Source: an uncultured Methanosarcinales archaeon (GTDB taxonomy: Archaea > Nanobdellota > Nanobdellia > Woesearchaeales > CAYPCY01). From it: a DNA stretch of 64,000 nucleotides. Positions 13,543 to 64,000 of the stretch are shown piece by piece; positions within the stretch are counted from its first letter, which is position 1; each line of letters starts with the position of its first letter. The notes beneath the pieces were generated by a model, which was not told the origin of the DNA, searched no databases, and saw only the letters and a program-made list of their open reading frames with translations. Position numbers and translations under genes: made by a program. The stretch covers positions 41,456 to 105,455 of the forward strand of contig CAYPCY010000001.1 in NCBI GenBank assembly GCA_964409385.1, in the 5' to 3' direction.

Positions 13543-13563
13543 CAGATGATTTTTCATAGTATT

Positions 13564-13917
13564 ATGGAAAACCAAAAACAACTTATGAGAACAGGATTTA
13601 TCAATAAAGATTCTTCTTTTTTAAAAACTGTTTTAGAAGATAAAATTCTAAATGAGTATAAGATTAAATGGAATAAAGATAAAGGTCAATTTTGTAGAGA
13701 TACCTTTGATAGTTTATATTCACAAACACTAAATCAATTAAATGATGCAGGTCTTAATGATTATAAAACTAGAAATCTTGGAAATCATAAAATAATTAAT
13801 GTTCCTAATAAAGGAGTTTATGAAATTAATTATCTTATTGATAATGATCATAATTTTTTAATTACTGAATTTTGTGATAAAGAACTTTACAAGTTAATTT
13901 CTGAAAAACTTAATTAG
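13564..13917 (+). CDS. Hypothetical protein (track start 13546; ATG 13564 is preferred because of the TATA spacing)
   Basis: ORF only. Confidence 0.3.
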   Translation: MENQKQLMRTGFINKDSSFLKTVLEDKILNEYKIKWNKDKGQFCRDTFDSLYSQTLNQLNDAGLNDYKTRNLGNHKIINVPNKGVYEINYLIDNDHNFLITEFCDKELYKLISEKLN

Positions 13918-13964: not shown

Positions 13965-14261
13965 ATGTTTAAGAAAGGAGCTAGTATTTCATTCAATACA
14001 ATAACCCTTGCAATTGTTGGTATTATTGTCCTTTTAGTTATAATTACTGTCTTTACTGGTAAGAGTAATTTAATTTCTAAAGATTTGAGTGCTTGCGAAT
14101 CTAAAGGGGGAGTTTGTCAAGGTAGTTGTGCCGATTCTTTTCAAACAGCTACTGATTTTGTTTGTACGGAACAGGAGTTAACTTGTTGTATTAATGTTTA
14201 CGATAAGCCTGTGGAAGATGCTAATGTTGATGTGGTTGATTCTTGGAGTAGTTTAATATGA
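13965..14261 (+). CDS. Small pilin-like protein with a class III (type IV prepilin-like) signal peptide and a Cys-rich C-terminus
   Basis: MFKKGASISFNTITLAIVGIIVLLVIITVF is a KKGA/S-type prepilin signal. Six Cys in the C-terminal half. Overlaps the next gene by 4 nt. Confidence 0.45.
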   Translation: MFKKGASISFNTITLAIVGIIVLLVIITVFTGKSNLISKDLSACESKGGVCQGSCADSFQTATDFVCTEQELTCCINVYDKPVEDANVDVVDSWSSLI

Positions 14262-16018
14262 GAAGAATAAACTTAATTTTAATGTTTGTATTGTTCCTTT
14301 CTAGTTTAGTTTCTGCTCAAGATTATGTTTATCTTTCTCTGAATGGAAATAGTATTTCTGGACAAAATAGTTTAGATTTGGAAGTTGGATCTTCTTATAA
14401 TTTCGAAGCTTCTGGAAGTTCTAATATTGCTAAAGTAAAAATGTACATTTCAGGAACTAATTTGCAGGAAGAAGGATTAACTGCAGATTTTGTTTTTTCT
14501 CCTGAAAGTCCTAACCAGCACGATTTAGTTATTATTGGTTATGACTCTGATGATTATGCCGTTGCTTCTTCAACTTTAACCTTAGTAGTTGGTGGTTGTC
14601 AGGAAGAGTGGGAGTGTTTTGAATGGAGTAGTTGTATTAGTAATTCTCAAACTAGAACTTGTGTTGATAATAATTTTTGTGGAACTAATTATGATGAACC
14701 AGTTCAGGAACAATATTGTGAACCAGACATTCCTGGTTGTACTGATTACTATTCTAATAATTATGATGATTCTGCTACTATTAATGATGGTAGTTGTGAG
14801 TATGATATTTATGGTTGTATGGATATTGAAGCTTTGAATTATGATCCTAATGTTAATATTAATGATTCTAGCTGTGAGTATGAAGAAGAACTTGCTGATG
14901 ACGAATGCAGTTCAGAATTTGATGTTTCTATCTCTGGAGATCCTTGGGTTTACAAATGTTTTTCTTCAAGTACTGCTCAAGGTTGTAAGGATGGTGTTGT
15001 TGGTAATGTTTTTAATATTCCTTCAAATCATGCATTACTTTCTAGATGTCAAGAACAAAATATTGATTTTGAAGGGTATGTTATTCCTGACACATGTTTG
15101 GGACAGAGTGATAGTTTTAATTACTTGAAAGACTGTACCAATCCAAGACTTAATGCTATTAGATTAATGATTATTGAAGAAGCAGAAAAAGAAAATATTG
15201 ATCCTTTATTTGCCCAGGCTGTTGCTTGTGTTGAAACTAAAATATCACATTTACAATCAAATGGTGAAATTCAAGCTAGTGGAACTGGCTCATTAGGTAT
15301 TTTTCAAGTGACAGAAACAACTGCAAGATCTATAGAAAATGATTGTTATAATGAGATTCCTAACTTTGATATTTATGATGAATATGACAATATTGTTTGT
15401 GGTTTGAAAATTATGAATGGAAAAGATGGTTATTTTGATGATGCTAGTGAATATTTGCAAAAAGTTCCTAATAATTGTCCTGAAAGCGAATATCCTGAGT
15501 ATTATGAATTATACTCTACTTATTCAACTAATAAGTGGAATAGGATTGCTAGAGCTTATAATTCCATGTCCTGTAGAACTGGGTCTGGAGCAGATATTTG
15601 TTATGTTGAGAAGGTATTGTATGCTATGAATATTCTTGAAGATTCTTCTTCTGATCTTTCTAAATGTTCGGGCATTATCGATTGTATTGGTAAAGAGGAT
15701 GTTATGAAATTTACATTCAAGGATGATGGTTTTTTTGGTATTGGAAGTAGAGAGTTTGATGTTTTTGCCGGGGTTGTTGATTCTTTCTCAGTATTATCTG
15801 ATGATGATTTCGAGGGTTTAGATGATAATGATATTATTGTTTTGTACAGTTCTGAAGAAAATCGTGTTGCTTTTATTCCTAGTGATAATGAGGGCGAGGA
15901 GGAGTTACTTACTGCTTCTTTAAACAGTTTGTCTAGCCAGTTTTCTTATGATCCTTATGGTGCAATGTATAAGTTCTTGGGAGAAGTAGAGTATACTACT
16001 GATACTTTTATTGGTTGA
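14258..16018 (+). CDS. Secreted Cys-rich protein with GC(T/M)D..NYD..DDGSCEY repeats and a lytic transglycosylase (SLT)-like domain
   Basis: Signal peptide MRRINLILMFVLFLSSLVSA. Repeats CTDYYSNNYDDSATINDGSCEY and GCMDIEALNYDPNVNINDSSCEY. SLT-like core AQAVACVETKISH...ASGTGSLGIFQVTETTA resembles the transglycosylase block ES...GA.GLMQ..P.TA. Confidence 0.5.
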   Translation: MRRINLILMFVLFLSSLVSAQDYVYLSLNGNSISGQNSLDLEVGSSYNFEASGSSNIAKVKMYISGTNLQEEGLTADFVFSPESPNQHDLVIIGYDSDDYAVASSTLTLVVGGCQEEWECFEWSSCISNSQTRTCVDNNFCGTNYDEPVQEQYCEPDIPGCTDYYSNNYDDSATINDGSCEYDIYGCMDIEALNYDPNVNINDSSCEYEEELADDECSSEFDVSISGDPWVYKCFSSSTAQGCKDGVVGNVFNIPSNHALLSRCQEQNIDFEGYVIPDTCLGQSDSFNYLKDCTNPRLNAIRLMIIEEAEKENIDPLFAQAVACVETKISHLQSNGEIQASGTGSLGIFQVTETTARSIENDCYNEIPNFDIYDEYDNIVCGLKIMNGKDGYFDDASEYLQKVPNNCPESEYPEYYELYSTYSTNKWNRIARAYNSMSCRTGSGADICYVEKVLYAMNILEDSSSDLSKCSGIIDCIGKEDVMKFTFKDDGFFGIGSREFDVFAGVVDSFSVLSDDDFEGLDDNDIIVLYSSEENRVAFIPSDNEGEEELLTASLNSLSSQFSYDPYGAMYKFLGEVEYTTDTFIG

Positions 16019-17762: not shown

Positions 17763-17794
17763 GTTAGTAGATTTTATTCTTGGAGAGGAATATA

Positions 17795-19153
17795 ATGAGT
17801 ATTAAAAATTTTATTGGAAATTCAGTTGATAAAATTAAAAACTATAGAAGTAGAACTAAGATTAAAATTGATAAACATTTAGAACCTGCTTTATTCTGGT
17901 TAGGAGCCAATGCAGGAATTCTATATGGTGGAGATAAAACTTTAGACTTTGTTTCTCAAAATATTGATTCTAACGAAGGACTTGCTATGCTTGGAACTTA
18001 TTCAGGGATCGGATTAGGTTTGGGATTAGCTAATAAGAAAGTTATTAATCCTCTTGCTAAAAAAATTAAAAAAATTCATAATTCAAGATTTAATTCTTGG
18101 AAGGAAGATAATGGTTGGAGTTGGGTAAAAACAGCTTCAGAATTTGGTGCTTTAGCAATCTTATATTCTACTTTAAATTTTAATTCTAGTATTGATAATT
18201 TTAAGAATGATGCTGATAGGATTGTTAATGCATTTTCTAGAAGCAATAAAACTATTGAGAGAATAATTAATGAACCTAACAGATTATTTAATTTTAGTGA
18301 TATAGATTGTGACATTCCTAGAACTTTAACTAAGGAGATTAAAGAAACTAACAAATGGAGTGATAAAGGAAGATTTTTAAGACAATTTAGATGGGATTGT
18401 ACTGTTTCTGAAATTGAAAAGAAATATAATATTCCAGATGGTTTATTAAGTGGTCTTGGTATGCAAGAGGGAGCGGGAGATCCTTTAAGTTTAAATTCTG
18501 GTAATGATGGTGGAGCAGGAAACTGGATGTTTCAACCAGGAACTGCTAAACAGTATGGTTTGAAGATTCATGGTACTTCTAAAAGGACTGGAAGGGATAG
18601 AAATCATGGCTGGAAGCTCTTAAAATTAGTTGAGAATAAGAATTGGAGTTATTCTACTCTTGCCAATATTGATGAAAGATTTAGTATTCCTAAGAGTGCC
18701 AATGCAGCAGGTCGTTATTTAAAGGATTTGCATAATAGATATGGTGATTGGGATAAAGTAATTTCTGCTTATAATCTTGGAAGACCTTGGAAGAATCCTG
18801 AAAGAACCACTCATGTTAAATGCACTAGAAAATATCAAAAGCAGTATCTTGAGAATAAGCTTGAAATGGGAAAACTAATTGATATTGATGTTTTAGAAAG
18901 TCTTAATGATCTAGGAGTTAATTTTGATTATATCCGAAAGAATTCTCAGGGAAAAGATGTCTTTAAATGGCATGTTGGCGCTGGAGAGAATCCTCAATCT
19001 ATTGCTAAACAGTTTAATGAGTGGGATATGAAAAAAGGGGATAAGTATAAAGAGCTTGATTCTACTTCGATTAAAAAGGCAGATGGTAGTTCTGTAGGTA
19101 ATTTAATATTTTCTAATAAACCTGTTTATGTTACTGCAAATGTTAAAGGTTAA
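17795..19153 (+). CDS. Lytic transglycosylase (SLT)-like domain protein (the track ORF starts at TTG 17780)
   Basis: LLSGLGMQEGAGDPLSLNSGNDGGAGNWMFQPGTAKQYGL resembles the SLT core QES.F.P.A.S..GA.GLMQ.MP.TA..YG. An N-terminal hydrophobic segment is present. Confidence 0.5.
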   Translation: MSIKNFIGNSVDKIKNYRSRTKIKIDKHLEPALFWLGANAGILYGGDKTLDFVSQNIDSNEGLAMLGTYSGIGLGLGLANKKVINPLAKKIKKIHNSRFNSWKEDNGWSWVKTASEFGALAILYSTLNFNSSIDNFKNDADRIVNAFSRSNKTIERIINEPNRLFNFSDIDCDIPRTLTKEIKETNKWSDKGRFLRQFRWDCTVSEIEKKYNIPDGLLSGLGMQEGAGDPLSLNSGNDGGAGNWMFQPGTAKQYGLKIHGTSKRTGRDRNHGWKLLKLVENKNWSYSTLANIDERFSIPKSANAAGRYLKDLHNRYGDWDKVISAYNLGRPWKNPERTTHVKCTRKYQKQYLENKLEMGKLIDIDVLESLNDLGVNFDYIRKNSQGKDVFKWHVGAGENPQSIAKQFNEWDMKKGDKYKELDSTSIKKADGSSVGNLIFSNKPVYVTANVKG

Positions 19154-49080: not shown

Positions 49081-49599
49081 ATGATAGCGTTAGCTTTGAA
49101 TAAAAAGGAAAAATTGCTAATAAGTTTCCTAAGACAAAATGCTAGGGAGACTTTAACTAATCTTAGCAAGAAAACTTCAATTCCAATAAGTACAATATAT
49201 GATAGTCTAAAAGAAAATAATTACATTACTAGAAATACTTGTTTATTAGATTTTGAAAAGTTAGGATTTCATACTCGTGTTAATATTTTCTTAAAATCAT
49301 CTGCGAAAAATAGAAAAGAGTTGGAAAACTACTTGGTAGGTCATCAAAATGTTAATTCTGTCTTTAGAATAAATAATAATTTTGACTTTTTGATAGAAGG
49401 AATTTTCAAGCAAGTAAAGGATGTTCAAGAAGTTATAGAATTACTTGAAAAAAACTTTGGAGATTTAAAAAAAGATATTTTTTACATTACTGAAGAGTTG
49501 AAGAAGGAAGAATTTCTCAGTAGTCCTGACCTGGTACAAACCCAAAAAACTTCCAAGATGACCGGAAATCCTCCGGCAAATTCTGGGTATGTCTTTTAA
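49081..49599 (+). CDS. Lrp/AsnC-family transcriptional regulator, paralogous to 23149-23598
   Basis: LISFLRQNARETLTNLSKKTSIPISTIYDSLK is an HTH. FRINNNFDFLIEGIFK resembles the 23149 protein's FKVNNQYDFLVECIFK. Confidence 0.6.
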   Translation: MIALALNKKEKLLISFLRQNARETLTNLSKKTSIPISTIYDSLKENNYITRNTCLLDFEKLGFHTRVNIFLKSSAKNRKELENYLVGHQNVNSVFRINNNFDFLIEGIFKQVKDVQEVIELLEKNFGDLKKDIFYITEELKKEEFLSSPDLVQTQKTSKMTGNPPANSGYVF

Positions 49600-52500
49600 A
49601 ATGAATAAACAAACTTTATTTATGGGGGAAGTAATAAATAAAACAAATATACTTTCGTTAAAAGTATTATCTTTCTTGCTCATATTCATCTTACTGCCTT
49701 TTGTTATTGCCTCTGAAACAACTTATGGTTCAGTCTATGAAATTGAAGAGATTGACAGAAAAGAATTATTTCAAGAAACAGTCAGAGAAAAACTTGAAAA
49801 ACAAGCATTAATCTATAAAGTAATTCCTACAGAAAAAGGAAATGAAATTTACAGAATTGATTCTGAAGGTAACATTATTGATGAAGATATTCCTCTTATT
49901 ATAAGTTCAATTAATTTATCTTCAAACTATTACGATGCAAAAATTTACGAGTCTCAAATTCAATCTCAAACTGTAAAACAAGGTAGTGGTGAAGGAGAAT
50001 CCTCCACTAGAGATATGGATTGTAATAATGCATATTATTTAGATTGGGAAGATGAAGGATCCGTCACCGGCTGGTATCCTCCAAACGAATACGAAAATCA
50101 TTGGTTTGAAATAGATCTTCCTAACGATGATGAATTTCTGATAGGTATTGACATGTCTAATAATGATGATTTTGATTTATATGTACATCCTGAATGTAAT
50201 GATGGATGGGTTTGCAGACCGTATGATGGAACAGGAGATACAGAAATTTGTTATGTCGATAATTTAGATGGAGATGTCTATATTAGAATTCATGCATATT
50301 ATTTAGGAGATGATGATCCTTATTATCTATATATTTATCCTCTTGAAGGAAATAATGATTATTGTGATATTTGGGATGATTGGGGAGTTCCTTGTGAAGA
50401 AGGAGAGTGGGATTGTGAAAGTGATTCTGATTGTGAGTCTGGTTTAGATTGTATGGGACCTTATGGAGATTACAATCCTAATTATTATGATGGATGTTGT
50501 GAACCTGGCGATGAATGGGACGCCAACAGTCATGAATGTATTTCAGGAGGTTGCGAAGAAGGTTGGTTAAACGAATATGATTGTGGTTCTGGCAACATGA
50601 GAAAAAGACTTTACCAAAATTCTGACTGTAGCACTGATTGGGAAAATTGGGAAGATTGTGACGATTATGATACAGGGTGGGATTACTTCTGTTCTGGAGA
50701 TTGTATACAAAGAGAAGAAACAGATTATTACTGTTCTGATTCTTCAAATTCTTGCCAAGGAAGTTATGACCAAGATACTCTTTCTTGTAACGGAGATTCT
50801 GATTACTGTGACGATAGGTATGATCATCAGGACGCTTGCGGAAAGTGTGGATATGAAGATTACGATTGTGATTGGAATAGTGAATGTTCAGGAAGTCTAG
50901 AATGTACAGGACCCATCTGGGGAGCACTAGATGGTTGTTGCAATCCAGGAGAACAATGGGACGGTAGCGGAAACTGCGGAGAATGCTTCGCAGACAGTGA
51001 CTGTGACGATCAAAATTATTATTCAGGTTGGAATTACGAATGTGGTAGTAATTATGTTAAAAAATATAGGACATTTTACGATTTTGGTTGTTCAGGAGGT
51101 AATGATTGTGTAGCTAATCAAATAAACGAGGAAGAAATTTATTATAATGGAAATTCTGATTATTGTTCTAAGAGTATAGAATTTGGTTGTGGAGGGTGCG
51201 ATTATGAACAATATGATTGTGATTGGAATAGTGAATGTTCAGGAAGCCTAGAATGTACAGGACCCATCTGGGGAGCACTAGATGGTTGTTGCAATCCAGG
51301 AGAACAATGGGACGGTAGCGGAAACTGCGGAGAATGCTTCGCAGACAGTGATTGTAACAGCCAAGATTACTATTCAGAATGGTATTACGAATGTGGTTAT
51401 GATTATGTCAAAAAGTATCGAATATTTTATGATTATTCTTGTTCAGGAGGTAATGATTGTATAGTTAATGAAATTGTTGAAGAAATAATATACAACAATG
51501 GAAATGAAGATTATTGTGATAAAAGTTTAGAGTATGGTTGTGGAGCTTGTGGATATGAACAATATGATTGTGATAGTAATAGTGAATGTTCAGGAAGCCT
51601 AGAATGTATGGGTTCAATCGGAGGCGCACTAGATGGTTGTTGCAATCCAAATGAAGAATGGGATGAAGTTAATTATGAGTGTATTTTCAACACTGTTTGT
51701 GGTGATGGAATTTGCAGTCCTGACGAGTATTGTGTTCAAGATTGTTTAGTTATTGACAGTTTTATTGACAATCCTGACTCTGTTGATTATGGAGAACCTG
51801 TTTCAGTAACTGTTAAGGTTGATAATATTGGAACTGTTACTTTATCTGAAAATATCGAAGCAGGAATTGTTCCTGAATCTTGGGCTGGTTTAATCTATCC
51901 TGATAGAAGTTCTACTCCTATTAGTGGTTGTTGTGACGCAAACGAATATTATGATTCTTTCCATCTGGAAATTAGTCCTGGACAGAGTGAATACGTTACT
52001 TTTAGTATTATAGCTCCTAATCCTGACTCTATTGATAATTGTGGTGATGGGGGTAGTGCTTGGGATTCTTCATTTAATTTAATTTCAGGATTGTATGTTG
52101 AGTGCTTTGAAGGATATACTGATTTTACAAGTACGGAGATTGATGTTTCTTATGAACCTCCTTGTAATAATAATGGTATTTGTGAAGAGTGGGAAAGTTT
52201 TGAAACTTGTTCTTCAGACTGTGTGTGTAATGGTAATGGAATTTGTGATGGTTTAGAAACTTTTGATACTTGCGCTAGTGAATGTTATTGTGATTTTGAT
52301 GGAACTTGCGACAGTTTTCAGGGAGAGAATGAGTATACTTGTGCCGCTGATTGTGTTCCTGATTGTGATATTCCTGACGGTAGTTCTTACGCTTGTGATT
52401 GTGATTCTAATATTGAATGTCCTTCGGGTTTGTTCTGTAATTTTGTTTCTGGTCCTGACGCTTGTGAGGAGATTAATTATGAGGATGAATGTTCTAACTA

Positions 52501-54739
52501 TAATGATTATTATTGTAATTCTGGAAATGTTTTCCAGTGTGTTTTTGAATCTACTAATTATGTTGAGGAACTAGTTGATGTTTGTACTAGTGGAGAGTTT
52601 TGTGATTCTCAAGTTGTTTCTGGCACTGGCGAGTGTAGTTTATTACCTGTTCATTTAGACTTGTGGATTGATTATGCACCTGTTGGTTTAACTGTTAATA
52701 AGCAAGTTGGTGATGTATTCACAGTTAATATTTATGCGGAACAGTCTACAACTGTTGATTTACAATATTCAGCAGTATTTTCTGGAGATTGTCCTCTAGG
52801 TAGTTATTCTTTAGACACTGGAGTTAATTCTTGCGAGTTAAGTGTTAATTCAGGATTTGGTAATTATATTATTAGTGTTAATGATAATGTAGTTACTTTG
52901 AATATTGTTTCAGAACCTTCATTGATTGTTGTTACTAATGTTGAGAAGTTGTTTGAAAGATTCCCTTATGAAGAAAGAGGGGTTGAAGCTACATTAAGTC
53001 AAACTTATGAGAATTCTGTTTCAAATTCGGTAGTTTATGATCTTAGCAAGTACATTTCTGGACATCCTTTCAATAGTTTTTCAAATTATAATGAGCATGT
53101 TGATAATCTTAACATGATGGATAATTCTTATACTGTTGAAGCTTCTGAATTCATTAAGGAAAAATGTAATGGTTGTTCTGATATTATGATTCTTGGTGAT
53201 GATTATGTTATTCCAGGATATAGAAGAATTATTGATGAGTACTTGACTGAATGGTTATGGTTTAACGGCGTTGCTGTAGAGTCTGTAATAACTACTGACA
53301 TTCCTTATATTGAAAAAGAAGTTTTATTGTTTTCTGAATATTTCGAAATTTTCAGGCAAGGATCTGGTTATCAGGGTAAGAATGTCTTAGTAATTCATCC
53401 TGCTAATGAAGATAGTTCCATGAGTGATAGTATTGAAGGTTTGAAGACTGCTTTTGTTGATCGTGGTTTTGATCCTGACTTCACAGATATTTCAGGAGAT
53501 ACTATTTATTGTGTTGATGAATCTTGGAGTAGTGATGCTTCTGGTAAGACTCTTATTCTTATTGGTTCTGAAGAGGATAATAATGCTTTTTCTTGCTTGC
53601 CTTTTATCCAGGCAGATTTAGATAATTATAGTGCTGCTCACTTACTTCCTAACGTTTGGGATACTGACGAATTTGCCTTAGTAATTAATACTGATGATCC
53701 TGCTGTTATTGAAAGTTTCGCATCTATGGTTAGAGAACAACAACTTGAGAATTTAGGTAGTGAGACTGCTTACTTCTTTAATATGGGAACTCAATATGTT
53801 GGTTATGGAGCTTTGGTTCTTGGTGCTGGGTTGATAATTGCTGGTACTGGTGGTGCTGCAGCTCCTGCAGGTTTGATTTTAATTGGGGGTATTGCTAATG
53901 TTGCTGCAGATTCAACTGATGTTGCTAATACTTGTTATGTTAATTATGATAGTATGGGCTGGTGTGGAGGCACTATTGCCTTAGCAGCAATTCCGGTCCT
54001 CCCTAGCAAGCCTGTTAAAGCTTTTATCAGGCAAATTAAGGATTTCAATTTTAATCAAATTGTTAATTTGCAATTAGTAGATGATGTAATGAAGAAATCC
54101 ATTAAATATTTTCAACCTGACGATCTTAAGAATGTAATTAAAAATGAGGAAACTCTTGAATTATTTTCTGACGGTAAACATTTCTTGATAGGGGGGGATG
54201 ATATTACTTCTATTAAAGTTGCTGAATTTAATAATATTAAAAAAGAACATTTAGCCGAAGGTTTTGTTAACTTGAAAAGGTTAGATTTAGATAATGCTTA
54301 TTTAGATCCTGATTGGTTAACCCAATTAAGAATGCAAGGAGGAAATCCTGGCTTTTGGGCTGAATTAAAACATGCTTCTGATCAGATAGATAATTTTGAT
54401 AAAGTTATTGTTGGGAAAAGACATGTAGGACTTAATATTGACATGGATGTATTATTGAAAAAAGAAGGCGTTCAAGAAGCTATTCTTGATGAAGTTAAGA
54501 ATTATAATAGTCTTCTAGAAATAGAAGAATTTAATTTAGGAGATGATTTATACAAACAATTAACTGCAAGAATTGGTTCTATAGGAACTACTGTTGAAGT
54601 TGCAGGAGATACTCTTACAATAACAAATGTCAGACTTATTGTTAGAGAAAATACACCTATAGGTCCAAATTTACAAACATTTTTAGATGAGAATCCTTCA
54701 ATGGAATTAATTAGATTTAGAGGAGTTGATTGGCCATGA
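49589..54739 (+). CDS. Giant secreted Cys-rich protein (1716 aa) with tandem ~117-aa Cys-rich modules, a Gly/Ala-rich hydrophobic segment and an unknown C-terminal domain
   Basis: Signal peptide LSFLLIFILLPFVIASE. Repeated modules CG.CGYE.YDCDWNSECSGSLECTGPIWGALDGCCNPGEQWDGSGNCGECFADSDC. More than 150 Cys in total. Confidence 0.6.
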   Translation: MSFKMNKQTLFMGEVINKTNILSLKVLSFLLIFILLPFVIASETTYGSVYEIEEIDRKELFQETVREKLEKQALIYKVIPTEKGNEIYRIDSEGNIIDEDIPLIISSINLSSNYYDAKIYESQIQSQTVKQGSGEGESSTRDMDCNNAYYLDWEDEGSVTGWYPPNEYENHWFEIDLPNDDEFLIGIDMSNNDDFDLYVHPECNDGWVCRPYDGTGDTEICYVDNLDGDVYIRIHAYYLGDDDPYYLYIYPLEGNNDYCDIWDDWGVPCEEGEWDCESDSDCESGLDCMGPYGDYNPNYYDGCCEPGDEWDANSHECISGGCEEGWLNEYDCGSGNMRKRLYQNSDCSTDWENWEDCDDYDTGWDYFCSGDCIQREETDYYCSDSSNSCQGSYDQDTLSCNGDSDYCDDRYDHQDACGKCGYEDYDCDWNSECSGSLECTGPIWGALDGCCNPGEQWDGSGNCGECFADSDCDDQNYYSGWNYECGSNYVKKYRTFYDFGCSGGNDCVANQINEEEIYYNGNSDYCSKSIEFGCGGCDYEQYDCDWNSECSGSLECTGPIWGALDGCCNPGEQWDGSGNCGECFADSDCNSQDYYSEWYYECGYDYVKKYRIFYDYSCSGGNDCIVNEIVEEIIYNNGNEDYCDKSLEYGCGACGYEQYDCDSNSECSGSLECMGSIGGALDGCCNPNEEWDEVNYECIFNTVCGDGICSPDEYCVQDCLVIDSFIDNPDSVDYGEPVSVTVKVDNIGTVTLSENIEAGIVPESWAGLIYPDRSSTPISGCCDANEYYDSFHLEISPGQSEYVTFSIIAPNPDSIDNCGDGGSAWDSSFNLISGLYVECFEGYTDFTSTEIDVSYEPPCNNNGICEEWESFETCSSDCVCNGNGICDGLETFDTCASECYCDFDGTCDSFQGENEYTCAADCVPDCDIPDGSSYACDCDSNIECPSGLFCNFVSGPDACEEINYEDECSNYNDYYCNSGNVFQCVFESTNYVEELVDVCTSGEFCDSQVVSGTGECSLLPVHLDLWIDYAPVGLTVNKQVGDVFTVNIYAEQSTTVDLQYSAVFSGDCPLGSYSLDTGVNSCELSVNSGFGNYIISVNDNVVTLNIVSEPSLIVVTNVEKLFERFPYEERGVEATLSQTYENSVSNSVVYDLSKYISGHPFNSFSNYNEHVDNLNMMDNSYTVEASEFIKEKCNGCSDIMILGDDYVIPGYRRIIDEYLTEWLWFNGVAVESVITTDIPYIEKEVLLFSEYFEIFRQGSGYQGKNVLVIHPANEDSSMSDSIEGLKTAFVDRGFDPDFTDISGDTIYCVDESWSSDASGKTLILIGSEEDNNAFSCLPFIQADLDNYSAAHLLPNVWDTDEFALVINTDDPAVIESFASMVREQQLENLGSETAYFFNMGTQYVGYGALVLGAGLIIAGTGGAAAPAGLILIGGIANVAADSTDVANTCYVNYDSMGWCGGTIALAAIPVLPSKPVKAFIRQIKDFNFNQIVNLQLVDDVMKKSIKYFQPDDLKNVIKNEETLELFSDGKHFLIGGDDITSIKVAEFNNIKKEHLAEGFVNLKRLDLDNAYLDPDWLTQLRMQGGNPGFWAELKHASDQIDNFDKVIVGKRHVGLNIDMDVLLKKEGVQEAILDEVKNYNSLLEIEEFNLGDDLYKQLTARIGSIGTTVEVAGDTLTITNVRLIVRENTPIGPNLQTFLDENPSMELIRFRGVDWP
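50837..51700 (+). repeat. 351-bp coding tandem repeat (2 near-identical copies plus a partial third) inside the giant protein gene
   Basis: Copies start at 50837, 51188 and 51539. The spurious ORFs 50931-51113 and 51282-51464 are displaced by exactly 351 nt and are near-identical. Confidence 0.8.
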
Positions 54740-55299
54740 GTAATTATAATAAATTTATTTTTAAGATTGAAAAAGAAGAAGATATTGAATTAATTAATAG
54801 TATAATAAATAAATACTGTTCTGAAAAAAATACTACTGAAGAATCTTTCAAACAATTAATTATTGGTGAAATGATTATTGATGTTTATTATACTGTAGAA
54901 AAAGATAGTTCTAAAACTAAATATGTTAGTTTTTCGGTTAATCAAATCAGGTTTAGTACTGAATCATTTTATAATTTAATTAAAGAGATAGGATCGGCAA
55001 TTTCAATGTCTGGAACGGGATATAACGAATACGAACCAGAAAAGGATCCTGAAGTTTTAGAAGAGGGTAAAAAAGGAATTTTTAAGAGATCTTATGATGT
55101 TGAAGATTTTTGGCCTTGGTCTCTTTTTTCTAAAGAATTAGTTGAAAAATACGGTAAAGATAAATTGTTTAGTGCTCCTGTTGAATTTGTTGAAGAATTT
55201 AATAATGGTTCTGTATTTTTAATGATTAATAAAAATTCAATGGGAACTAATAACTTCGAACAAAGAAAAAAATTAAGGGAATACTTAAGAAATGAATAA
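54730..55299 (+). CDS. Hypothetical 189-aa cytoplasmic protein overlapping both giant genes (possible accessory, immunity or chaperone)
   Basis: Its start overlaps the 49589 gene stop by 10 nt, and its stop overlaps the 55292 gene start by 8 nt. Confidence 0.35.
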   Translation: MAMSNYNKFIFKIEKEEDIELINSIINKYCSEKNTTEESFKQLIIGEMIIDVYYTVEKDSSKTKYVSFSVNQIRFSTESFYNLIKEIGSAISMSGTGYNEYEPEKDPEVLEEGKKGIFKRSYDVEDFWPWSLFSKELVEKYGKDKLFSAPVEFVEEFNNGSVFLMINKNSMGTNNFEQRKKLREYLRNE

Positions 55300-58200
55300 A
55301 CAATTAATTTTAGGAATTTATATTTTACTTTTGTTTTCACAAGCTTTAGCTGTGGAGTTTGTTAGTGAGAAAAATTCTGTTTCTAGAATTGTTGGTGAAT
55401 CACCTACTGAATTAATTACTCAATTGAAGAGAACTTCTCTTAATATTGATGAAGCTACTTATTACAGTTACGAAACAAGTCTTATTAACAAGAAAGATAA
55501 TATTCTTAATGAACAATTTGGTGGTGTTGATACTAATCTTCCTAATTATTATAATTTTTACGAAATTCAGGATTCTGTAGATTCTCTTTCAAATAATGAA
55601 TTGTTTATTCTTGAAGCATTTGGTGGAGATTCTTTTCAAGAGGTTAAATCTGCAAGTTTTTTAGGGGATGAATTATCAGTCCAGGATATTACTGATTGGC
55701 AATCTTCTTTTGAAATGAATACTCCCTTATTTATTTTTGATGCTCCTAATGCAGGAGTTTACATGCCTAAGGATGATACTTTCGTTTCTAGACTAGTTAG
55801 GGATTCTACAATAATCGCTCCTTCGTATTATAACTCTCCAGAATTTACCAAGTCAGTACTTTGTAATTTACAGTCTGGAAAGACTATTGGTGAGACTTTC
55901 AAGGATGCTAGAAACTTCCATTTTAATGGCGGTTCCTCTAATAATTATATTGGATTGGTTTTACAGTCTTATAATTTATATGGTAATCCTAGACAGGTTA
56001 TTTCCATGCCTTCCTTTGACATTGCTGATTACTGCCAGAATAATCTTGAAAATTTAGCGAATGGTATTGAATATTTGGGGGAGGTTGGTAATTATTCTTT
56101 GTTTAGAAAACATTTAACTTACACTATTGATGATTTTGAAATTGTTAATAATACTATTGAAATTCCAGGTCTTAATCAAAGGCTTTCTTTTGGAGAACCA
56201 ATAGTTCCTGTTTCTATAAGAACTACTTATTTTCCTAAAGATACTATTTTCATGAATTTTAGTGTTAATGAAATCAGTAATCCAGAAAGTTTTAATCTTA
56301 ACTTTTCTTCTTACGAGTTTGACTTTGTTGATAGGCATTGTTATCAAGAAGAGTTCGGAGAGGAAATCATTCTTTCGGAAGGTTATGGTAAGACTCATAA
56401 TTTGATTGCTAAAATACTTCCAGTTAGGATTGATAATTGTTCTTCTGGAGATATTACTTTATTTAAACAATTTAATTACAGTGTTGATTACATCACATTA
56501 AGTCCTGTGATGATTAAGGAAGTTAGTGTTCCTTCAAAAGTTTATTCTAATGAAATTGTTAATGTTGATGTTGAAATTTTGAATTTGAAAGATTCTGTTA
56601 GTTTTGGTTCTTTGGCTGTTTACAAGGGTTCTGAACTTATTACTGAGAATGAAATTAACTCTTCAATTTATAATCATACATTAAGTTTTTATGCGCCTGA
56701 AGAGGGAATTCATAAGTATAGTGTAGAATTTATTTTTGAGAATGAAACTGCTCATTATAAAGAGTTTATTCTTGAGTCTGTAATTTTAGAAGTTGATGCT
56801 TCCATTCCAGTTTCTATAAATGAAGAAACCACTATTAATCTAGAATTATACTCTCCCTTAACTTTTGATACTGTTATGGAGTATTACTTGTTAAAAGATG
56901 AAGAGATTCTTGATTCTGGAGTTTTAGAGTTTGAAGTTTCTGGATTAATAAATCAAGAAATTTCTTTTACTGGACTTTCAAGGGAAGACCAGAATTATTT
57001 GCTGAGAATTAATAATTATTACTTAGGGAATCAGAAAACTAATACTTTCTTATTAACAATTAATAATCTTCCTTTACTTAATGTTGATTATGATACTGTT
57101 TTTGAAAATGAATCTTTCATTATTAGTTTTGAAGCTACTGATTTGGATAATGATCCTTTAACAATTTCAATAGATGATGAGAATTTCATTCAAGAAAATA
57201 ATAGTTTTGTTTGGGATACTGAATTTACTGATTCTGGAGATTATACTGTTGAACTTACTGTTTTTGATGGTTTATTAACAAATTCTTTGCTTATTCCATT
57301 TTCTATTGAAAATTGGTTATTGCCAATGAGTATTTCTGGCGGTTTAGTTTATAGTAATGGAGAAATAATTAATAATTCAATTTTGGATGTTTATATTAAT
57401 AATATTTTATTTAGTAGTTTTGAAGTTGATACTAGTTATTCAATTAATATTCCTGCAGACAATTTTGATAATTATGGTTTTTTTGAAGATGATATTATTA
57501 GTTTCAAACTTGATAATTATGACGTTGTGGAAACTTTAAGTTTCATTCCTGAAGAAGAAATTAGTTTGGACTTGACTGTTTTACTTCCTAATACTGCTCC
57601 TGTCTTTGATGAAATTTCTGATCAATTAATTAATGAAGGTTATGCTTTAACTATTGAACTTAATGTTTCAGATCCTGATGGTGATGACTTAACTTATTTA
57701 CTTGAAGGTCCTGGAATTTTATTCAATAATACTTATGTTTGGGAGACTTTATTTGAAGATTCTGGAATTTATGATGTTTCAATAATAGTTTCAGATTTTG
57801 AATATTCAATCACTAGAACATTCTCTATTGAAGTTTTGAATATTAATAGACTTCCTGTAATTGAAGAAATTCTTAATCAAATTATTCATGAGAATGAAAC
57901 TTTAATTATTGAACTTAATGTTTCAGATCCGGACAGTGATGAATTAACAATTTCATTGGATGGGGTTGGAGAGATAATTGATGAAACTTTTGTTTTCTCT
58001 CCTGAATATGGTAGTTCAGGAATTTATGATGTTTCAATAATAGTTTCAGATTTTGAATCTTCAGTTACTGAAAATTTCTCTATTGAAGTTTTGAATATTA
58101 ATTTACCTCCAGTTGTAGAGTTTGAATTTGATGATGAATTAGTTAATGAGGTAGACTCTATCAGCATAATAGTTAATGCTGTTGATCCTGATAATAATGA

Positions 58201-62853: not shown

Positions 62854-63516
62854 ATGAAACCTATCATTGCAGTTAATTTCAAAACTTATAAGGAAAGCAC
62901 GGGAGAGCAAGGAGTTATTCTAGCCAGGGAATTAGAAAGAGCATCTAAAGAACTTCAAGTTTCAGTAATTCTTGTCGTTCAACCCACTGATTTATACAGG
63001 ATTTCTAAAGAAGTTTCACTGCCTGTTTATTCAGAACATGTTGACCCAATCAGTTACGGAGCTCATACTGGGAGTATTCTTGCAGAGTCATTAAAAGAAA
63101 ATAATGCAGTTGGTGTCTTACTTAATCATTCTGAAGATCGTTTTAGGATTGACAAACTAGAAGAGAGCATTAAAAGAAGTAACAAGGTTGGTTTGAAAAC
63201 AATGGTTTGTGCTACTGACGAATTAGCTGCTAAGACAATCGCTGCCTTCAATCCTGACTTTGTAGCTGTAGAACCTCCCGAACTAATTGGAGGGGATATT
63301 TCAGTATCAACCTCTAATCCTAAGATTGTTAGTGATTCTGTTGCTAATGTTAAGAAAGTAAATCCTAAAATTATTATTCTTTGCGGTGCAGGAATAAAAA
63401 CAAATACTGATTTTAAGAAGGCATTACAACTTGGAGCTTCAGGAGTTTTAATAGCTTCAGGAATTGTCCTTGCTAAAAACCCCTACAGAAAATTGAAAGA
63501 ACTAGGCCAGATTTAA
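62854..63516 (+). CDS. tpiA: Triosephosphate isomerase, short archaeal type
   Basis: KPIIAVNFKTY, NHSE, EPPELIG and GAGI motifs. ~220 aa, as for archaeal TIM. Start taken at the internal ATG; the track start is 62833. Confidence 0.85.
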   Translation: MKPIIAVNFKTYKESTGEQGVILARELERASKELQVSVILVVQPTDLYRISKEVSLPVYSEHVDPISYGAHTGSILAESLKENNAVGVLLNHSEDRFRIDKLEESIKRSNKVGLKTMVCATDELAAKTIAAFNPDFVAVEPPELIGGDISVSTSNPKIVSDSVANVKKVNPKIIILCGAGIKTNTDFKKALQLGASGVLIASGIVLAKNPYRKLKELGQI

Positions 63517-63993
63517 GAAGAATAATATTGGATAATAATAAGTGCTTTCATCTGACGATTTAGTAATTGTTAATTTAAAACTATACTTTCCTGAAGGACT
63601 TCCTTCATTAGATATTAAGAATGGCTTGTAAATTTCCTCATTATTAGGCAAAGTCACAATATTTTCTGCAAATTCATAATCCCAATTTCCAGTACAAGCA
63701 CTTTCAGTTGTTTCATCTGGAAAATAACTAACACATTCTACATTTATGCTAAAAATTTCCTCTGCGCCTACAATATTCTTTATTCCAACACCAAACACTC
63801 CCTGTCTTCCCTCAGCATCCTGAACCAGTGGATAAACAGCCACTTTCTCTCCAGAAATTACTAATTGCTTCAATGCTTGTTCTTGTTGTGCAGATAGTTG
63901 ATTTGTTAATTTTCCACTTTGTTCAAAAACTTGATACATTATTGTCATTCCCATTCCAAGAACTAATATTGCTACTATTATCACTACAAGCAT
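63502..63993 (-). CDS. Membrane-anchored protein, possibly pilin/archaellin-like (N-terminal hydrophobic helix)
   Basis: MLVVIIVAILVLGMGMTIMYQVF, then a soluble domain with 2 Cys. Confidence 0.3.
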   Translation of the reverse strand: MLVVIIVAILVLGMGMTIMYQVFEQSGKLTNQLSAQQEQALKQLVISGEKVAVYPLVQDAEGRQGVFGVGIKNIVGAEEIFSINVECVSYFPDETTESACTGNWDYEFAENIVTLPNNEEIYKPFLISNEGSPSGKYSFKLTITKSSDESTYYYPILFFLNLA

Positions 63994-64000
63994 ATTTACT

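What the first reader, a model, noticed from the sequence alone, without database searches (positions are those of the whole stretch)
13965..16018. Pilin-like gene overlapping a secreted Cys-rich protein that carries an SLT (lytic transglycosylase)-like domain
A class-III signal-peptide (prepilin-like) mini-protein overlaps by 4 nt a 586-aa secreted protein with GC(T/M)D..NYD..DDGSCEY repeats and an SLT-like catalytic block (ACVET...SGTGSLGIFQVTETTA). Archaea of this kind lack murein. A surface-appendage-linked muralytic enzyme points to attack on, or penetration of, a bacterial partner, or else to horizontally acquired DNA.
Basis: partly seen in the sequence, partly recalled or inferred. Interest (0 to 1): 0.55.

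Follow-up and report, generated by a model that had tools for sequence, protein, structure and literature searches.

The report
Pilin-like gene coupled to archaeal wall-cutter
A tiny marine archaeon that has no bacterial-type cell wall carries a small pilus-subunit-like gene fused by overlap to a secreted enzyme built to cut bacterial cell wall, and related archaea keep the same pairing inside whole clusters of pilus-like proteins armed with three kinds of wall-degrading enzymes, which points to a surface device for attacking or docking onto bacteria.

Summary
ORF A (13965-14261, 98 aa) has a class-III (prepilin-like) N-terminus plus a six-Cys head. It overlaps by ATGA ORF B (14258-16018, 586 aa), a Sec-signal protein with 24 Cys.

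ORF B carries a genuine SLT/GH23 domain (aa 299-460):
- Pfam SLT scores above gathering.
- Glu326, the GIFQ motif and the AYN motif are all present.

The host is a low-GC DPANN-type archaeon and the locus sits among housekeeping genes, so it is neither viral nor a recent transfer.

Murein-type transglycosylases in Woese-/Pacearchaeota, and the idea that they attack bacteria, are already published.

What I found no paper describing:
1. ORF A belongs to a conserved DPANN family of small pilin-like proteins.
2. That family is reciprocally linked to clusters of 9-15 co-directional genes, most with class-III-like N-termini.
3. Proteins in those clusters carry SLT, Amidase_2 or Peptidase_M23 domains.
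4. The family's Cys head resembles tick carboxypeptidase inhibitor and beta-defensins (E 4e-5; the shuffled control gave nothing).

Best reading: a reduced version of a surface module that targets peptidoglycan. Enzyme activity, pilin processing and a physical A-B link are all untested.

The parts
13965..14261 (+). ORF A: 98-aa small class-III-signal (type IV pilin-like) protein with a six-Cys head. It belongs to a conserved DPANN family.
   Evidence: ORF. Only two close homologues exist, both syntenic. The 16-member family alignment A4 has the consensus M.KKGVELS.NTIIIAAI.LLVLVVL...SC...GG.C...C...C.....CC. dN/dS is 0.28.
13965..13979 (+). Putative class III signal peptide (MFKKG), with predicted cleavage after Gly5.
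   Evidence: It matches the FlaFind-type pattern [KR]G[A..][S..][I..] followed by a hydrophobic helix. Cleavage itself is inferred, not shown.
13980..14060 (+). Hydrophobic N-terminal helix of the mature ORF A (aa 6-32).
   Evidence: Hydropathy is 3.2 over 18 aa. This is the most conserved part of family A4.
14094..14189 (+). Six-Cys head of ORF A (C-x6-C-x3-C-x11-C-x6-CC), net charge -4.
   Evidence: Coordinates and charge are. The head-only family profile A6 hits the tick carboxypeptidase inhibitor C-domain (E 4.1e-5) and beta-defensins. The control with Cys fixed and other residues shuffled gave no hit.
14258..14261 (+). ATGA overlap: the stop of ORF A and the start of ORF B, suggesting translational coupling.
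   Evidence: The sequence is. The same overlap occurs in relative L002.
14258..16018 (+). ORF B: 586-aa secreted, disulfide-rich, multidomain protein with an SLT/GH23 domain.
   Evidence: It has 24 Cys and no membrane segment after the signal.
14258..14317 (+). Sec-type signal peptide (MRRINLILMFVLFLSSLVSA|QD).
   Evidence: Read directly from the sequence. No signal-peptide predictor was available, so this is inference.
14318..14596 (+). N-terminal beta-rich domain (aa 21-113), specific to this lineage.
   Evidence: Only L002 has a relative. The single-sequence AF2 model shows strands but at low confidence.
14597..14719 (+). Cys module CQEEWECFEWSSCISNSQTRTC...C (aa 114-154).
   Evidence: The same module occurs at the C-terminus of P0015.
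14735..14881 (+). Two GC(T/M)D..NYD..D(D/S)SCEY repeats (aa 160-182 and 186-208).
   Evidence: They match repeats in Flavobacteria CHU_C/T9SS proteins at 44-56% identity. They also match a 588-aa class-III-signal protein of the same genome (L020 325-2091).
15152..15637 (+). SLT / GH23 lytic-transglycosylase domain (aa 299-460) of a Cys-containing subfamily found only in DPANN-type archaeal MAGs.
15233..15235 (+). Codon of the predicted catalytic Glu326 (in the VET motif; E-S in relatives).
   Evidence: It is invariant column E28 of alignment A2. It aligns with the catalytic E-S of MltC.
15665..16015 (+). C-terminal domain (aa 470-586) of unknown function.
   Evidence: The only relative is P0024 (50% identity, 127 aa). 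No Pfam family hits it and none of the fetched loci has it.
17780..19153 (+). Second, unrelated SLT protein (457 aa, MltD-like) on the other side of Elp3.
   Evidence: Pfam SLT scores 36.5 bits. There are weak hits to MltD in NCBIfam and to PDB 8rhe. It is not of the ORF B subfamily (hhalign probability 7%).
63502..64000 (-). Another class-III-signal protein, cut by the window end (174 aa in full: MNSKGMDVSVNMLVVIIVAILVLG...).
   Evidence: L020 8739-9263. A 164-aa MKRGDLSLSTNAIVVLIMALVVLG... protein lies nearby, two genes away.

Best explanation
ORF A and ORF B form a translationally coupled two-gene unit in a marine, ultra-small DPANN archaeon, probably of the Woesearchaeota/Pacearchaeota (Nanoarchaeia) type. 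I read it as a pared-down version of a lineage-specific surface module that targets bacterial peptidoglycan.

**ORF A.** It is made with a class III signal peptide. After cleavage behind Gly5 it would insert by its hydrophobic helix into the membrane or into a type-IV-pilus-like filament. That would expose a small disulfide-knotted head of the beta-defensin / carboxypeptidase-inhibitor type.

**ORF B.** It is exported by Sec and oxidised to about 12 disulfides. Its GH23 domain would use Glu326 as the single acid/base to cleave the MurNAc-beta-1,4-GlcNAc bond of murein. The Cys-rich repeats and the unique N- and C-terminal domains would provide binding or docking.

**Together.** The pair would let the cell bind and locally open the sacculus of a neighbouring bacterium, for attachment, for access to its contents, or for muropeptide scavenging.

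**Shown:** gene structure, family membership, a catalytically complete SLT fold, and the reciprocal genomic linkage of the two families with each other and with amidase/M23 domains.

**Inferred:** signal cleavage, filament assembly, any A-B contact, the substrate, and the ecological role.
For: **The SLT domain is real and catalytically complete.**
- Pfam SLT scores above gathering.
- Glu, G..Q and YN are invariant across the family.
- The family profile hits MltC and Slt70.
- The AF2 model has pLDDT 95.4.

**The subfamily looks archaeal.** All 13 loci in species-representative genomes are archaeal MAGs. Seven are labelled Woesearchaeota or Nanoarchaeia, five carry an 'uncultured Methanosarcinales' label, and one is labelled only 'archaeon'. 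One named member is P0047, from a Nanoarchaeia archaeon.

**ORF A belongs to a real family.** There are 16 aligned members from independent MAGs.

**Linkage, starting from SLT.** ORF-A-type genes lie beside the SLT gene in L003-6, L008, L011, L013 and L016-19.

**Linkage, starting from ORF A.** Of 15 non-redundant metagenome loci with enough downstream DNA, 10 carry SLT, Amidase_2 or M23 downstream on the same strand.

**The clusters are pilin-like.** 62 of 88 cluster genes have [KR]-G + hydrophobic N-termini, against 1 of 37 flanking genes.

**The target is probably murein.** Giant cluster proteins carry Peptidase_M23 (E 4.5e-25 and 9e-23) or Amidase_2 (E 8.7e-24 and 1.8e-27), usually together with an SLT-like domain. 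One cluster protein has an OmpA-like match just below threshold.

**A processing enzyme sits beside the family once.** An archaeal A24 class III signal peptidase (Peptidase_A24 plus Arc_PepC, both above gathering) lies 1.4 kb from two ORF-A-type genes in L048.

**The genes are coupled and selected.** The ATGA overlap is conserved in L002 and dN/dS is 0.28 for both genes.

**Supporting context in the same genome.**
- There are further class-III-signal proteins, one of which carries ORF B's repeats.
- DsbB lies about 2 kb outside the window.

**Literature.** The same role has been proposed for DPANN transglycosylases (PMC8204110, PMC9723730), and archaeal peptidoglycan hydrolases have been shown to kill bacteria (PMC12352652).
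Against: - ORF B itself has a Sec signal, not a pilin-type N-terminus, and nothing shows that it touches ORF A.
- The window has no amidase or M23 domain. It also has no pilus ATPase, platform protein or prepilin peptidase, and none lies within about 10 kb either side.
- ORF A and its relatives hit no curated pilin N-terminal model in Pfam or NCBIfam.
- Many family members do not fit the strict FlaFind cleavage pattern.
- ORF B's full-length architecture is an orphan, with only one relative.
- Five of the 15 reciprocal-test loci showed no recognised hydrolase.
- No bacterial host of any Woese- or Pacearchaeote has been demonstrated, and there are no expression data.
Confidence: 0.6

Rival explanations
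1. Same parts, different purpose. ORF B is a freely secreted bacteriolytic or scavenging enzyme, used for competition or for feeding on cell-wall debris. ORF A is an unrelated small surface protein that happens to share the operon. There is no appendage and no host contact.
For: - ORF B has an ordinary Sec signal and no anchor.
- No pilus machinery was found nearby.
- Secreted archaeal peptidoglycan hydrolases that kill bacteria are documented (PMC12352652).
- Two reciprocal-test loci have lone ORF-A-type genes with no hydrolase (L048, L078).
Against: - The ATGA coupling is conserved.
- The two families are linked reciprocally in many independent MAGs.
- In relatives the SLT, amidase and M23 domains are themselves fused to class-III-type N-termini.
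Confidence: 0.22
2. The GH23 domain acts on a glycan other than murein. Candidates are chitin or chito-oligosaccharides, a host archaeal surface glycan, or pseudomurein. On this view the link to bacteria is illusory.
- The subfamily is very divergent from bacterial enzymes, at about 18-22% identity.
- Known DPANN hosts are archaea (general knowledge; PMC8204110 abstract).
Against: - In related clusters the same subfamily travels with Amidase_2 and Peptidase_M23, which act on the peptide stems of murein.
- There is a second, MltD-like SLT 1.8 kb away.
- All three family-1 transglycosylase motifs are kept.
Confidence: 0.12
3. ORF A is not a pilin at all. It would be an uncleaved, N-terminally anchored membrane protein, for example a docking partner, chaperone or inhibitor of ORF B. 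Its head resembles small enzyme inhibitors.
For: - No pilin HMM hits it.
- The head resembles tick carboxypeptidase inhibitor and helianthamide, both of which are enzyme inhibitors.
- Lys-Lys before a hydrophobic helix is also what a simple signal-anchor looks like.
Against: - A Gly or Ala directly after the basic residues recurs in 62 of 88 cluster proteins.
- One or two tandem small genes sitting at the head of a multi-'pilin' cluster is typical of pilus operons.
- An A24 peptidase lies next to two family members in L048.
- An archaeon without murein needs no immunity protein against a transglycosylase.
Confidence: 0.2
4. The locus is recently acquired foreign DNA, from a bacterium, a virus or a mobile element, and has no adapted role in the archaeon.
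For: - The SLT domain is ultimately of bacterial type.
- GC is slightly higher here (0.325 against about 0.28).
- The repeats match Flavobacteria proteins.
Against: - The flanks are rRNA methyltransferase, Elp3 and eIF2-gamma.
- The synteny is kept in a relative at 75% identity.
- Both genes are under purifying selection.
- No relatives exist in IMG/VR.
- The SLT subfamily was found only in archaeal MAGs.
- Other Cys- and Gly-rich genes in the window have equal or higher GC.
Confidence: 0.04

Closest known systems
Murein-like lytic transglycosylase proteins of Woesearchaeota/Pacearchaeota (fam00969 of Castelle et al. 2021, PMC8204110; GH23 of Vigneron et al. 2022, PMC9723730)
   Same: - An extracellular SLT/GH23 domain in a small-genome DPANN archaeon that lacks murein.
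- The same proposed role, binding or degrading bacterial wall.
- The giant relatives found here (L014 at 2282 aa; L016-19 at about 1300 aa) fit their description of 'large proteins up to 3000 aa'.
   Different: - ORF B is only 586 aa, uses a Sec signal, and has an otherwise orphan domain set.
- The papers I read mention no pilin-like partner gene, no class-III N-termini and no co-resident M23 or amidase domains. The words pilin, pilus and pili occur 0 times in them.
- I could not compare directly with the fam00969 sequences.
Bacterial family-1 lytic transglycosylases (Slt70, MltC, MltE, MltF, LtgA; Pfam PF01464, CAZy GH23)
- The E-S/T, G-[LIV]-[MF]-Q and A-Y-N motifs.
- A single catalytic Glu.
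   Different: - Sequence identity is about 18-22%.
- There are four extra conserved Cys, probably forming two disulfides, and an insertion between motifs II and III.
- The host is archaeal, with no sacculus of its own to remodel.
Specialised transglycosylases of bacterial trans-envelope machines (EtgA of the T3SS, VirB1 of the T4SS; pilus- and flagellum-associated enzymes)
   Same: An SLT domain is encoded inside, or next to, an operon for a surface filament or secretion apparatus. EtgA is among the sequence and structure hits.
   Different: Those enzymes open the producer's own wall so that the machine can assemble. Here the producer has no murein, so the wall to be opened must belong to another cell.
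Archaeal type IV pilins and type-IV-filament systems, and type IV pili of episymbiotic Patescibacteria (PMC9894109, PMC11623550)
   Same: - A short basic leader ending in Gly, then a hydrophobic helix about 20-25 aa long.
- Small subunit genes sit at the head of multi-'pilin' clusters.
- An ultra-small episymbiont uses pili for host contact.
   Different: - The head is a 32-residue six-Cys knot rather than an Ig-like or alpha-beta pilin domain.
- Known pilin HMMs give no hit.
- No ATPase or platform protein lies adjacent.
- Pilin-type proteins carrying peptidoglycan hydrolase domains are not described in the literature I could search.
Beta-defensin-fold mini-proteins (tick carboxypeptidase inhibitor, beta-defensins, big defensins, helianthamide)
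   Same: - The six-Cys framework C-x6-C-x3-4-C-x9-C-x6-CC, with GG before the second Cys.
- The family profile aligns end to end with the TCI C-domain (E 4.1e-5) and with beta-defensin 8 (E 0.006).
- Big defensins likewise pair a hydrophobic N-terminal part with this kind of domain.
   Different: - All of these proteins are from animals (my own knowledge).
- ORF A's head is acidic (-4), not cationic.
- Pfam defensin and I68 scores for relatives stay just below gathering, and the window protein itself gives no hit.
- No structure was predicted, so homology and convergence cannot be told apart.

Membership tests
SLT domain / family-1 lytic transglycosylase (PF01464, GH23) | Match to the curated family model above its gathering score | tested here: met
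   Pfam SLT scores 24.6 bits against a cut-off of 21.3, E 2e-5, over aa 304-435. Relatives score up to 54 bits.
SLT domain / family-1 lytic transglycosylase (PF01464, GH23) | Catalytic Glu in the E-S motif, plus the G-L-M-Q and A-Y-N-x-G motifs | tested here: met
   ORF B has E326-T, G347-I-F-Q350 and A433-Y-N-S. E, G, Q, Y and N are invariant in the 16-sequence alignment A2. The Glu aligns with the E-S of MltC.
SLT domain / family-1 lytic transglycosylase (PF01464, GH23) | Lysozyme-like all-alpha fold | tested here: met
SLT domain / family-1 lytic transglycosylase (PF01464, GH23) | Non-hydrolytic cleavage of murein that yields 1,6-anhydro-MurNAc | not testable with these tools
Archaeal type IV pilin-like (class III signal peptide) protein | A short basic leader ending in Gly/Ala, then a hydrophobic helix of about 20 residues at the extreme N-terminus | tested here: met
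   The N-terminus reads MFKKG|ASISFNTITLAIVGIIVLLVIITVF. It fits the FlaFind-type pattern and was the only clean hit in the window. The feature is conserved across family A4.
Archaeal type IV pilin-like (class III signal peptide) protein | Match to curated pilin/archaellin N-terminal models | tested here: not met
   There is no Pfam or NCBIfam pilin hit for ORF A or for any of the 16 family members at E <= 0.1.
Archaeal type IV pilin-like (class III signal peptide) protein | A class III signal peptidase (PibD/FlaK/EppA, peptidase A24) in the same genome | tested here: inconclusive
In metagenome locus L048 an A24 + Arc_PepC peptidase lies 1.4 kb from two family members.
Archaeal type IV pilin-like (class III signal peptide) protein | A type-IV-filament ATPase and platform protein; assembly into a filament | tested here: inconclusive
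   None lies adjacent in any of the loci whose flanking genes I inspected. A 590-aa product with weak T2SSE and KH hits lies about 8 kb outside the window but is cut off. Filament formation cannot be tested here.
DPANN pilin-like cluster carrying peptidoglycan hydrolases (defined here) | An ORF-A-type small Cys-knot gene on the same strand as, and within a few kb upstream of, an SLT, Amidase_2 or M23 protein | tested here: met
   In the window, ORF A abuts the SLT gene. The same linkage is seen in L003-6, L008, L011, L013 and L016-19 and in 10 of 15 reciprocal loci.
DPANN pilin-like cluster carrying peptidoglycan hydrolases (defined here) | 8-13 co-directional genes, most with class-III-like N-termini, with the hydrolase itself carrying such an N-terminus | tested here: not met
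   The window has only ORF A plus a Sec-signal ORF B, and the neighbouring genes are housekeeping. It is at best a reduced variant.
Beta-defensin-fold / tick carboxypeptidase inhibitor-like domain (head of ORF A) | A six-Cys framework with sequence similarity beyond the Cys positions | tested here: inconclusive
   Family profile A6 against the PDB gives TCI at E 4.1e-5 and beta-defensin 8 at E 0.006, and all 8 hits have this fold. The control with Cys fixed and other residues shuffled gave no hit at E <= 10. Against that, Pfam scores for relatives are below gathering (24.4 vs 25; 19.4 vs 21; 18.6 vs 22.2) and the window protein gives none. No structure model was made.

The most novel reading that the evidence does not exclude
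Woesearchaeota/Pacearchaeota-type DPANN archaea build a type-IV-pilus-like filament that works as a 'muralytic pilus'. The major subunit would be a roughly 80-100-aa pilin with a beta-defensin-like disulfide knot. The minor, pilin-anchored subunits would carry lytic transglycosylase, MurNAc-L-Ala amidase and M23 endopeptidase domains. The apparatus would breach the peptidoglycan of bacterial hosts or prey across domains. The window's ORF A/ORF B pair would be a minimal form in which the enzyme is secreted separately. A corollary would be the first beta-defensin-fold domain outside animals.
Probability: 0.3. Interest if true: 0.85.

Novelty: new variant of a known kind. Interest (0 to 1): 0.62.

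Why it matters
Whether the very abundant Woese- and Pacearchaeota live on bacteria is an open question. No host is known, and so far the only hint has been the presence of murein transglycosylase domains.

This locus and its relatives make the question sharper in two ways:
- The wall-cutting domains are not stray enzymes. They are embedded in, or coupled to, a conserved set of pilin-like surface proteins.
- They come together with the two other enzyme classes needed to take murein apart.

That yields concrete, testable parts:
- a 98-aa pilin-like protein;
- a 160-aa enzyme domain with a named catalytic residue;
- a candidate processing peptidase.

It also yields a marker gene family for finding such systems in metagenomes.

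If the small Cys head proves to have a beta-defensin fold, the known range of that fold would extend to archaea.

Tried and rejected
**Approaches that led nowhere**
- Single-sequence AF2 of full-length ORF B gave pLDDT 36 and was useless. Only the domain with an alignment worked.
- Full-length ORF B has no solved relative by phmmer.
- It has no relative in the GTDB species representatives or in IMG/VR. The SLT subfamily motif also found nothing viral.
- Alignments A2 and A4 were too divergent for pattern scans, so I used the tighter subsets A3 and A5.
- The afdb50 fold library was unavailable.
- NCBIfam gave nothing for ORF A or ORF B.
They gave only TARA mesopelagic 0.1-0.22 um hints, so the taxon assignment rests on gene content and on where the SLT subfamily occurs.

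**Ideas considered and dropped**
- The two SLT proteins of the window are paralogues. BLASTP and hhalign say they are not.
- ORF A's head is a cationic antimicrobial peptide. Its net charge is -4.
- The defensin-like hits are a pure Cys-spacing artefact. The shuffled control gave none, although I ran only one shuffle.
- The locus is a provirus or island. It has housekeeping flanks and conserved synteny.

**Other limits**
- The sigma-70 promoter scanner was not used because the host is archaeal.
- A TTAAATA box lies about 25 nt upstream of the ORF A start. In a 28% GC genome this carries little weight.


Full report
**1. What is there**

The window is a low-GC (about 28%) stretch of an archaeal chromosome. 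Around the finding lie an RsmB-type methyltransferase, a rhodanese/SelU protein, Elp3, eIF2-gamma, S6e, NOG1, archease and OapB/OapC. Further along are DnaK/DnaJ, Cbf5, RtcA and very large surface proteins with Ig-like repeats. Cluster members come from TARA mesopelagic 0.1-0.22 um samples. This is the profile of an ultra-small marine DPANN archaeon. No source gave an organism name, so the assignment is an inference.

The only close relative of ORF A (P0021, 75% identity) sits in a syntenic contig. There it is again overlapped by ATGA with the start of an ORF B homologue. Both genes show dN/dS of about 0.28, against 0.12 for the neighbouring RsmB. They are therefore real, selected and fast-evolving genes.

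**2. ORF B**

It has a Sec-type signal, 24 Cys and no membrane anchor. Its parts, in order:

| Region (aa) | Feature | Evidence |
|---|---|---|
| 21-113 | lineage-specific beta-rich domain | |
| 114-154 | C..W..C..W module | |
| 160-208 | two GC(T/M)D..NYD..SCEY repeats, also in marine Flavobacteria surface proteins and in a 588-aa class-III-signal protein of the same genome | |
| 299-460 | SLT domain | see below |
| 470-586 | orphan C-terminal domain | |

The SLT call is solid:
- Pfam scores above gathering.
- An exhaustive search of 1.84 billion representatives found only 24 relatives. They define a divergent subfamily with the catalytic Glu, the G..Q of GLMQ and the YN of AYN invariant, plus four conserved Cys.
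- The family profile finds MltC, Slt70, MltE and EtgA.
- With that alignment AF2 gives pLDDT 95.4.

All 13 loci that carry the subfamily motif in species-representative genomes are archaeal MAGs. Seven are labelled Woesearchaeota or Nanoarchaeia, five carry an 'uncultured Methanosarcinales' label, and one is labelled only 'archaeon'. No viral contig has the subfamily.

**3. ORF A**

Its N-terminus (MFKKG|ASISFNT + hydrophobic helix) fits a class III signal pattern, and it was the only clean hit in the window. It is not an orphan.

Small proteins of 75-103 aa lie next to the SLT-subfamily gene in many of the independent loci. They have the same N-terminus and the same Cys framework (consensus M.KKGVELS.NTIIIAAI.LLVLVVL ... 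SC...GG.C...C...C.....CC).

No curated pilin model recognises them. That is a failed membership test, and I report it as such.

**4. The wider system**

In L003-6, L008, L013 and L016-19 the SLT gene is part of a run of 9-15 co-directional genes. In these runs 62 of 88 products begin with [KR]-G plus a hydrophobic helix, against 1 of 37 flanking genes. One or two ORF-A-type genes open the run.

The SLT domain takes one of two forms. It is either a stand-alone pilin-like protein of 264-280 aa, or part of a terminal protein of roughly 560-1380 aa. In four loci those giant proteins also carry Peptidase_M23 (L008, L018) or Amidase_2 (L016, L019), at E 1e-23 to 1e-27.

A second architecture puts the SLT at the C-terminus of multi-pass membrane proteins of about 800 aa (L009, L010, L015; cut at the contig end in L012).

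I also ran the reciprocal test. A metagenome scan with an ORF-A-family motif returned 65 loci. Of 15 non-redundant loci with at least about 7 kb of downstream sequence, 10 have SLT, Amidase_2 or M23 downstream on the same strand. The other five break down as follows:
- one (L049) has a near-threshold OmpA-like match, a family I know to bind peptidoglycan;
- one (L064) is a pilin-like cluster with no recognised hydrolase domain;
- two (L048, L078) are lone gene copies;
- one (L073) is a false positive.

In L048 an archaeal A24 peptidase (Peptidase_A24 plus Arc_PepC, both above gathering) lies 1.4 kb from two ORF-A-type genes.

**5. Interpretation**

Three enzyme classes that together dismantle murein are attached to, or coupled with, class-III-signal proteins in archaea that have no murein. 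This argues that the target is the wall of another cell, a bacterium. It also argues that the enzymes are presented on or beside a type-IV-filament-like structure.

The window's locus is a reduced version: one pilin-like gene, translationally coupled to a Sec-exported enzyme.

- **Shown:** domain identity, motif conservation, family membership and genomic linkage.
- **Inferred:** signal cleavage, filament formation, A-B contact, substrate and ecological role.

The main rivals are listed with their tests: a freely secreted lysin, a non-murein substrate, ORF A as a plain membrane anchor or inhibitor, and recent horizontal transfer.

**6. Comparison with the literature**

Murein-type transglycosylases in Woese- and Pacearchaeota, and the idea that they bind or degrade bacterial walls, have been published repeatedly:
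- PMC8204110, which cites Rinke 2013 and Castelle 2015;
- PMC9723730;
- PMC10936187;
- PMC11537232.

Archaeal peptidoglycan hydrolases that kill bacteria have been demonstrated for other enzyme families (PMC12352652).

None of the papers I checked for those words mentions pilins or pili in this context. A 2026 survey of archaeal type-IV-filament systems mentions no transglycosylase. Targeted full-text searches found nothing either.

The SLT finding is therefore known. What appears new is the small Cys-knot pilin-like family, its reciprocal linkage, and the M23 and amidase cargo. The library does not cover subscription journals, so this is not proof of novelty.

**7. An unexpected detail**

The Cys head of the ORF A family aligns end to end, with all six Cys in register, with two kinds of animal mini-protein:
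- the C-terminal domain of tick carboxypeptidase inhibitor (E 4.1e-5);
- mouse beta-defensin 8 (E 0.006).

All eight PDB hits have the beta-defensin fold. A control profile, with Cys fixed and the other residues shuffled, found nothing at E <= 10.

Pfam defensin and I68 scores for relatives fall just short of gathering, and the window protein itself gives none. The window head is acidic. Fold and homology therefore remain open.

**8. Verdict**

- Observation: confirmed.
- Interpretation: partly supported. It is right about the parts and about the likely direction. It is unproven on function and wrong on recent transfer.
- Novelty: a new variant of a known kind.
- Interest: moderate to high. 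The value lies less in the window's own pair of genes than in the conserved system to which they point.

Noticed in passing
window 17780-19153 (+): A second SLT protein (457 aa) lies on the other side of Elp3. Pfam SLT scores 36.5 bits, with E-G, GNWMFQ and AYNLG motifs. It has weak MltD-like hits and hydrophobic, Gly-rich N-terminal segments. It is not of ORF B's subfamily. The archaeon therefore carries two unrelated murein-type transglycosylases within 5 kb.
   Followed up: partly
window 14094-14189; family alignments A4/A6 (L003, L005, L008, L011, L016-L019): The six-Cys head of the ORF A family resembles tick carboxypeptidase inhibitor and beta-defensins (PDB profile E 4.1e-5 and 0.006). 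A shuffled-residue control gave no hit. Pfam defensin and I68 scores are just below gathering. I know of no report of this fold outside animals.
   Followed up: partly
L008 11784-15476; L018 5730-9866; L016 5784-9800; L019 5823-9836; L023 12564-16616; L058 15796-17679: Proteins of about 630-1380 aa, most of them giant and with class-III-like N-termini, carry Peptidase_M23 or Amidase_2 together with an SLT-like domain. They sit at the end of pilin-like gene clusters in Woesearchaeota/Nanoarchaeia MAGs.
   Followed up: yes
L048 2379-3491 (-): An archaeal class III signal peptidase (Peptidase_A24 plus Arc_PepC, both above gathering) lies 1.4 kb from two tandem ORF-A-type genes.
   Followed up: yes
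window 63502-64000 (-), continued in L020 8739-9263; also L020 8033-8527 and L020 325-2091: Three more class-III-signal proteins of the same genome lie at or just past the window end (174, 164 and 588 aa). The 588-aa one (MKKGQVATEFL...) carries the same GCTD..NYD..DDGSCEY repeats as ORF B.
   Followed up: partly
L009 5994-8543, L010 6051-8429, L012 1-1443, L015 6000-8459: There is a second architecture for the same SLT subfamily. The domain sits at the C-terminus of a multi-pass membrane protein of about 800 aa. That gene is preceded by a 383-398-aa protein with an N-terminal helix and followed by two or three lipoprotein-like paralogues of about 320 aa.
   Followed up: no
window 49589-54739 (+) and 55292-59734 (+): Two very large secreted proteins. 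One is 1716 aa with 98 Cys and no Pfam hit. The other is 1480 aa with Big_9, cadherin-like, PKD and He_PIG repeats. They are probably surface adhesins of the same cell.
   Followed up: no
L087 9230-9772 (about 2 kb outside the window start) and L087 15328-15754: A DsbB homologue lies just outside the window, which fits the many disulfide-rich exported proteins. About 8 kb outside is a 590-aa product with weak T2SSE and KH hits. It is cut by the locus end, so it could be either a filament ATPase or a PINA-type enzyme.
   Followed up: no
window 13546-13917 (+): A 123-aa ORF with no signal peptide and no family hit lies 47 nt upstream of ORF A. It is conserved in L002 (75% identity, dN/dS 0.27). 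It may belong to the same transcript.
   Followed up: partly
L003 5816-6004, L005 5831-6004: In the distant clusters, too, a short ORF (50-62 aa, one hydrophobic helix) overlaps the start of the SLT gene by ATGA. This echoes the ORF A/ORF B coupling in the window.
   Followed up: no
window 14597-14719; P0015 C-terminus: The module C..EW.C..WS.C..N.QTRTC.D.N.CGT of ORF B recurs at the end of an unrelated 501-aa secreted protein from a JGI metagenome. It looks like a mobile Cys-rich module with no Pfam family.
   Followed up: no
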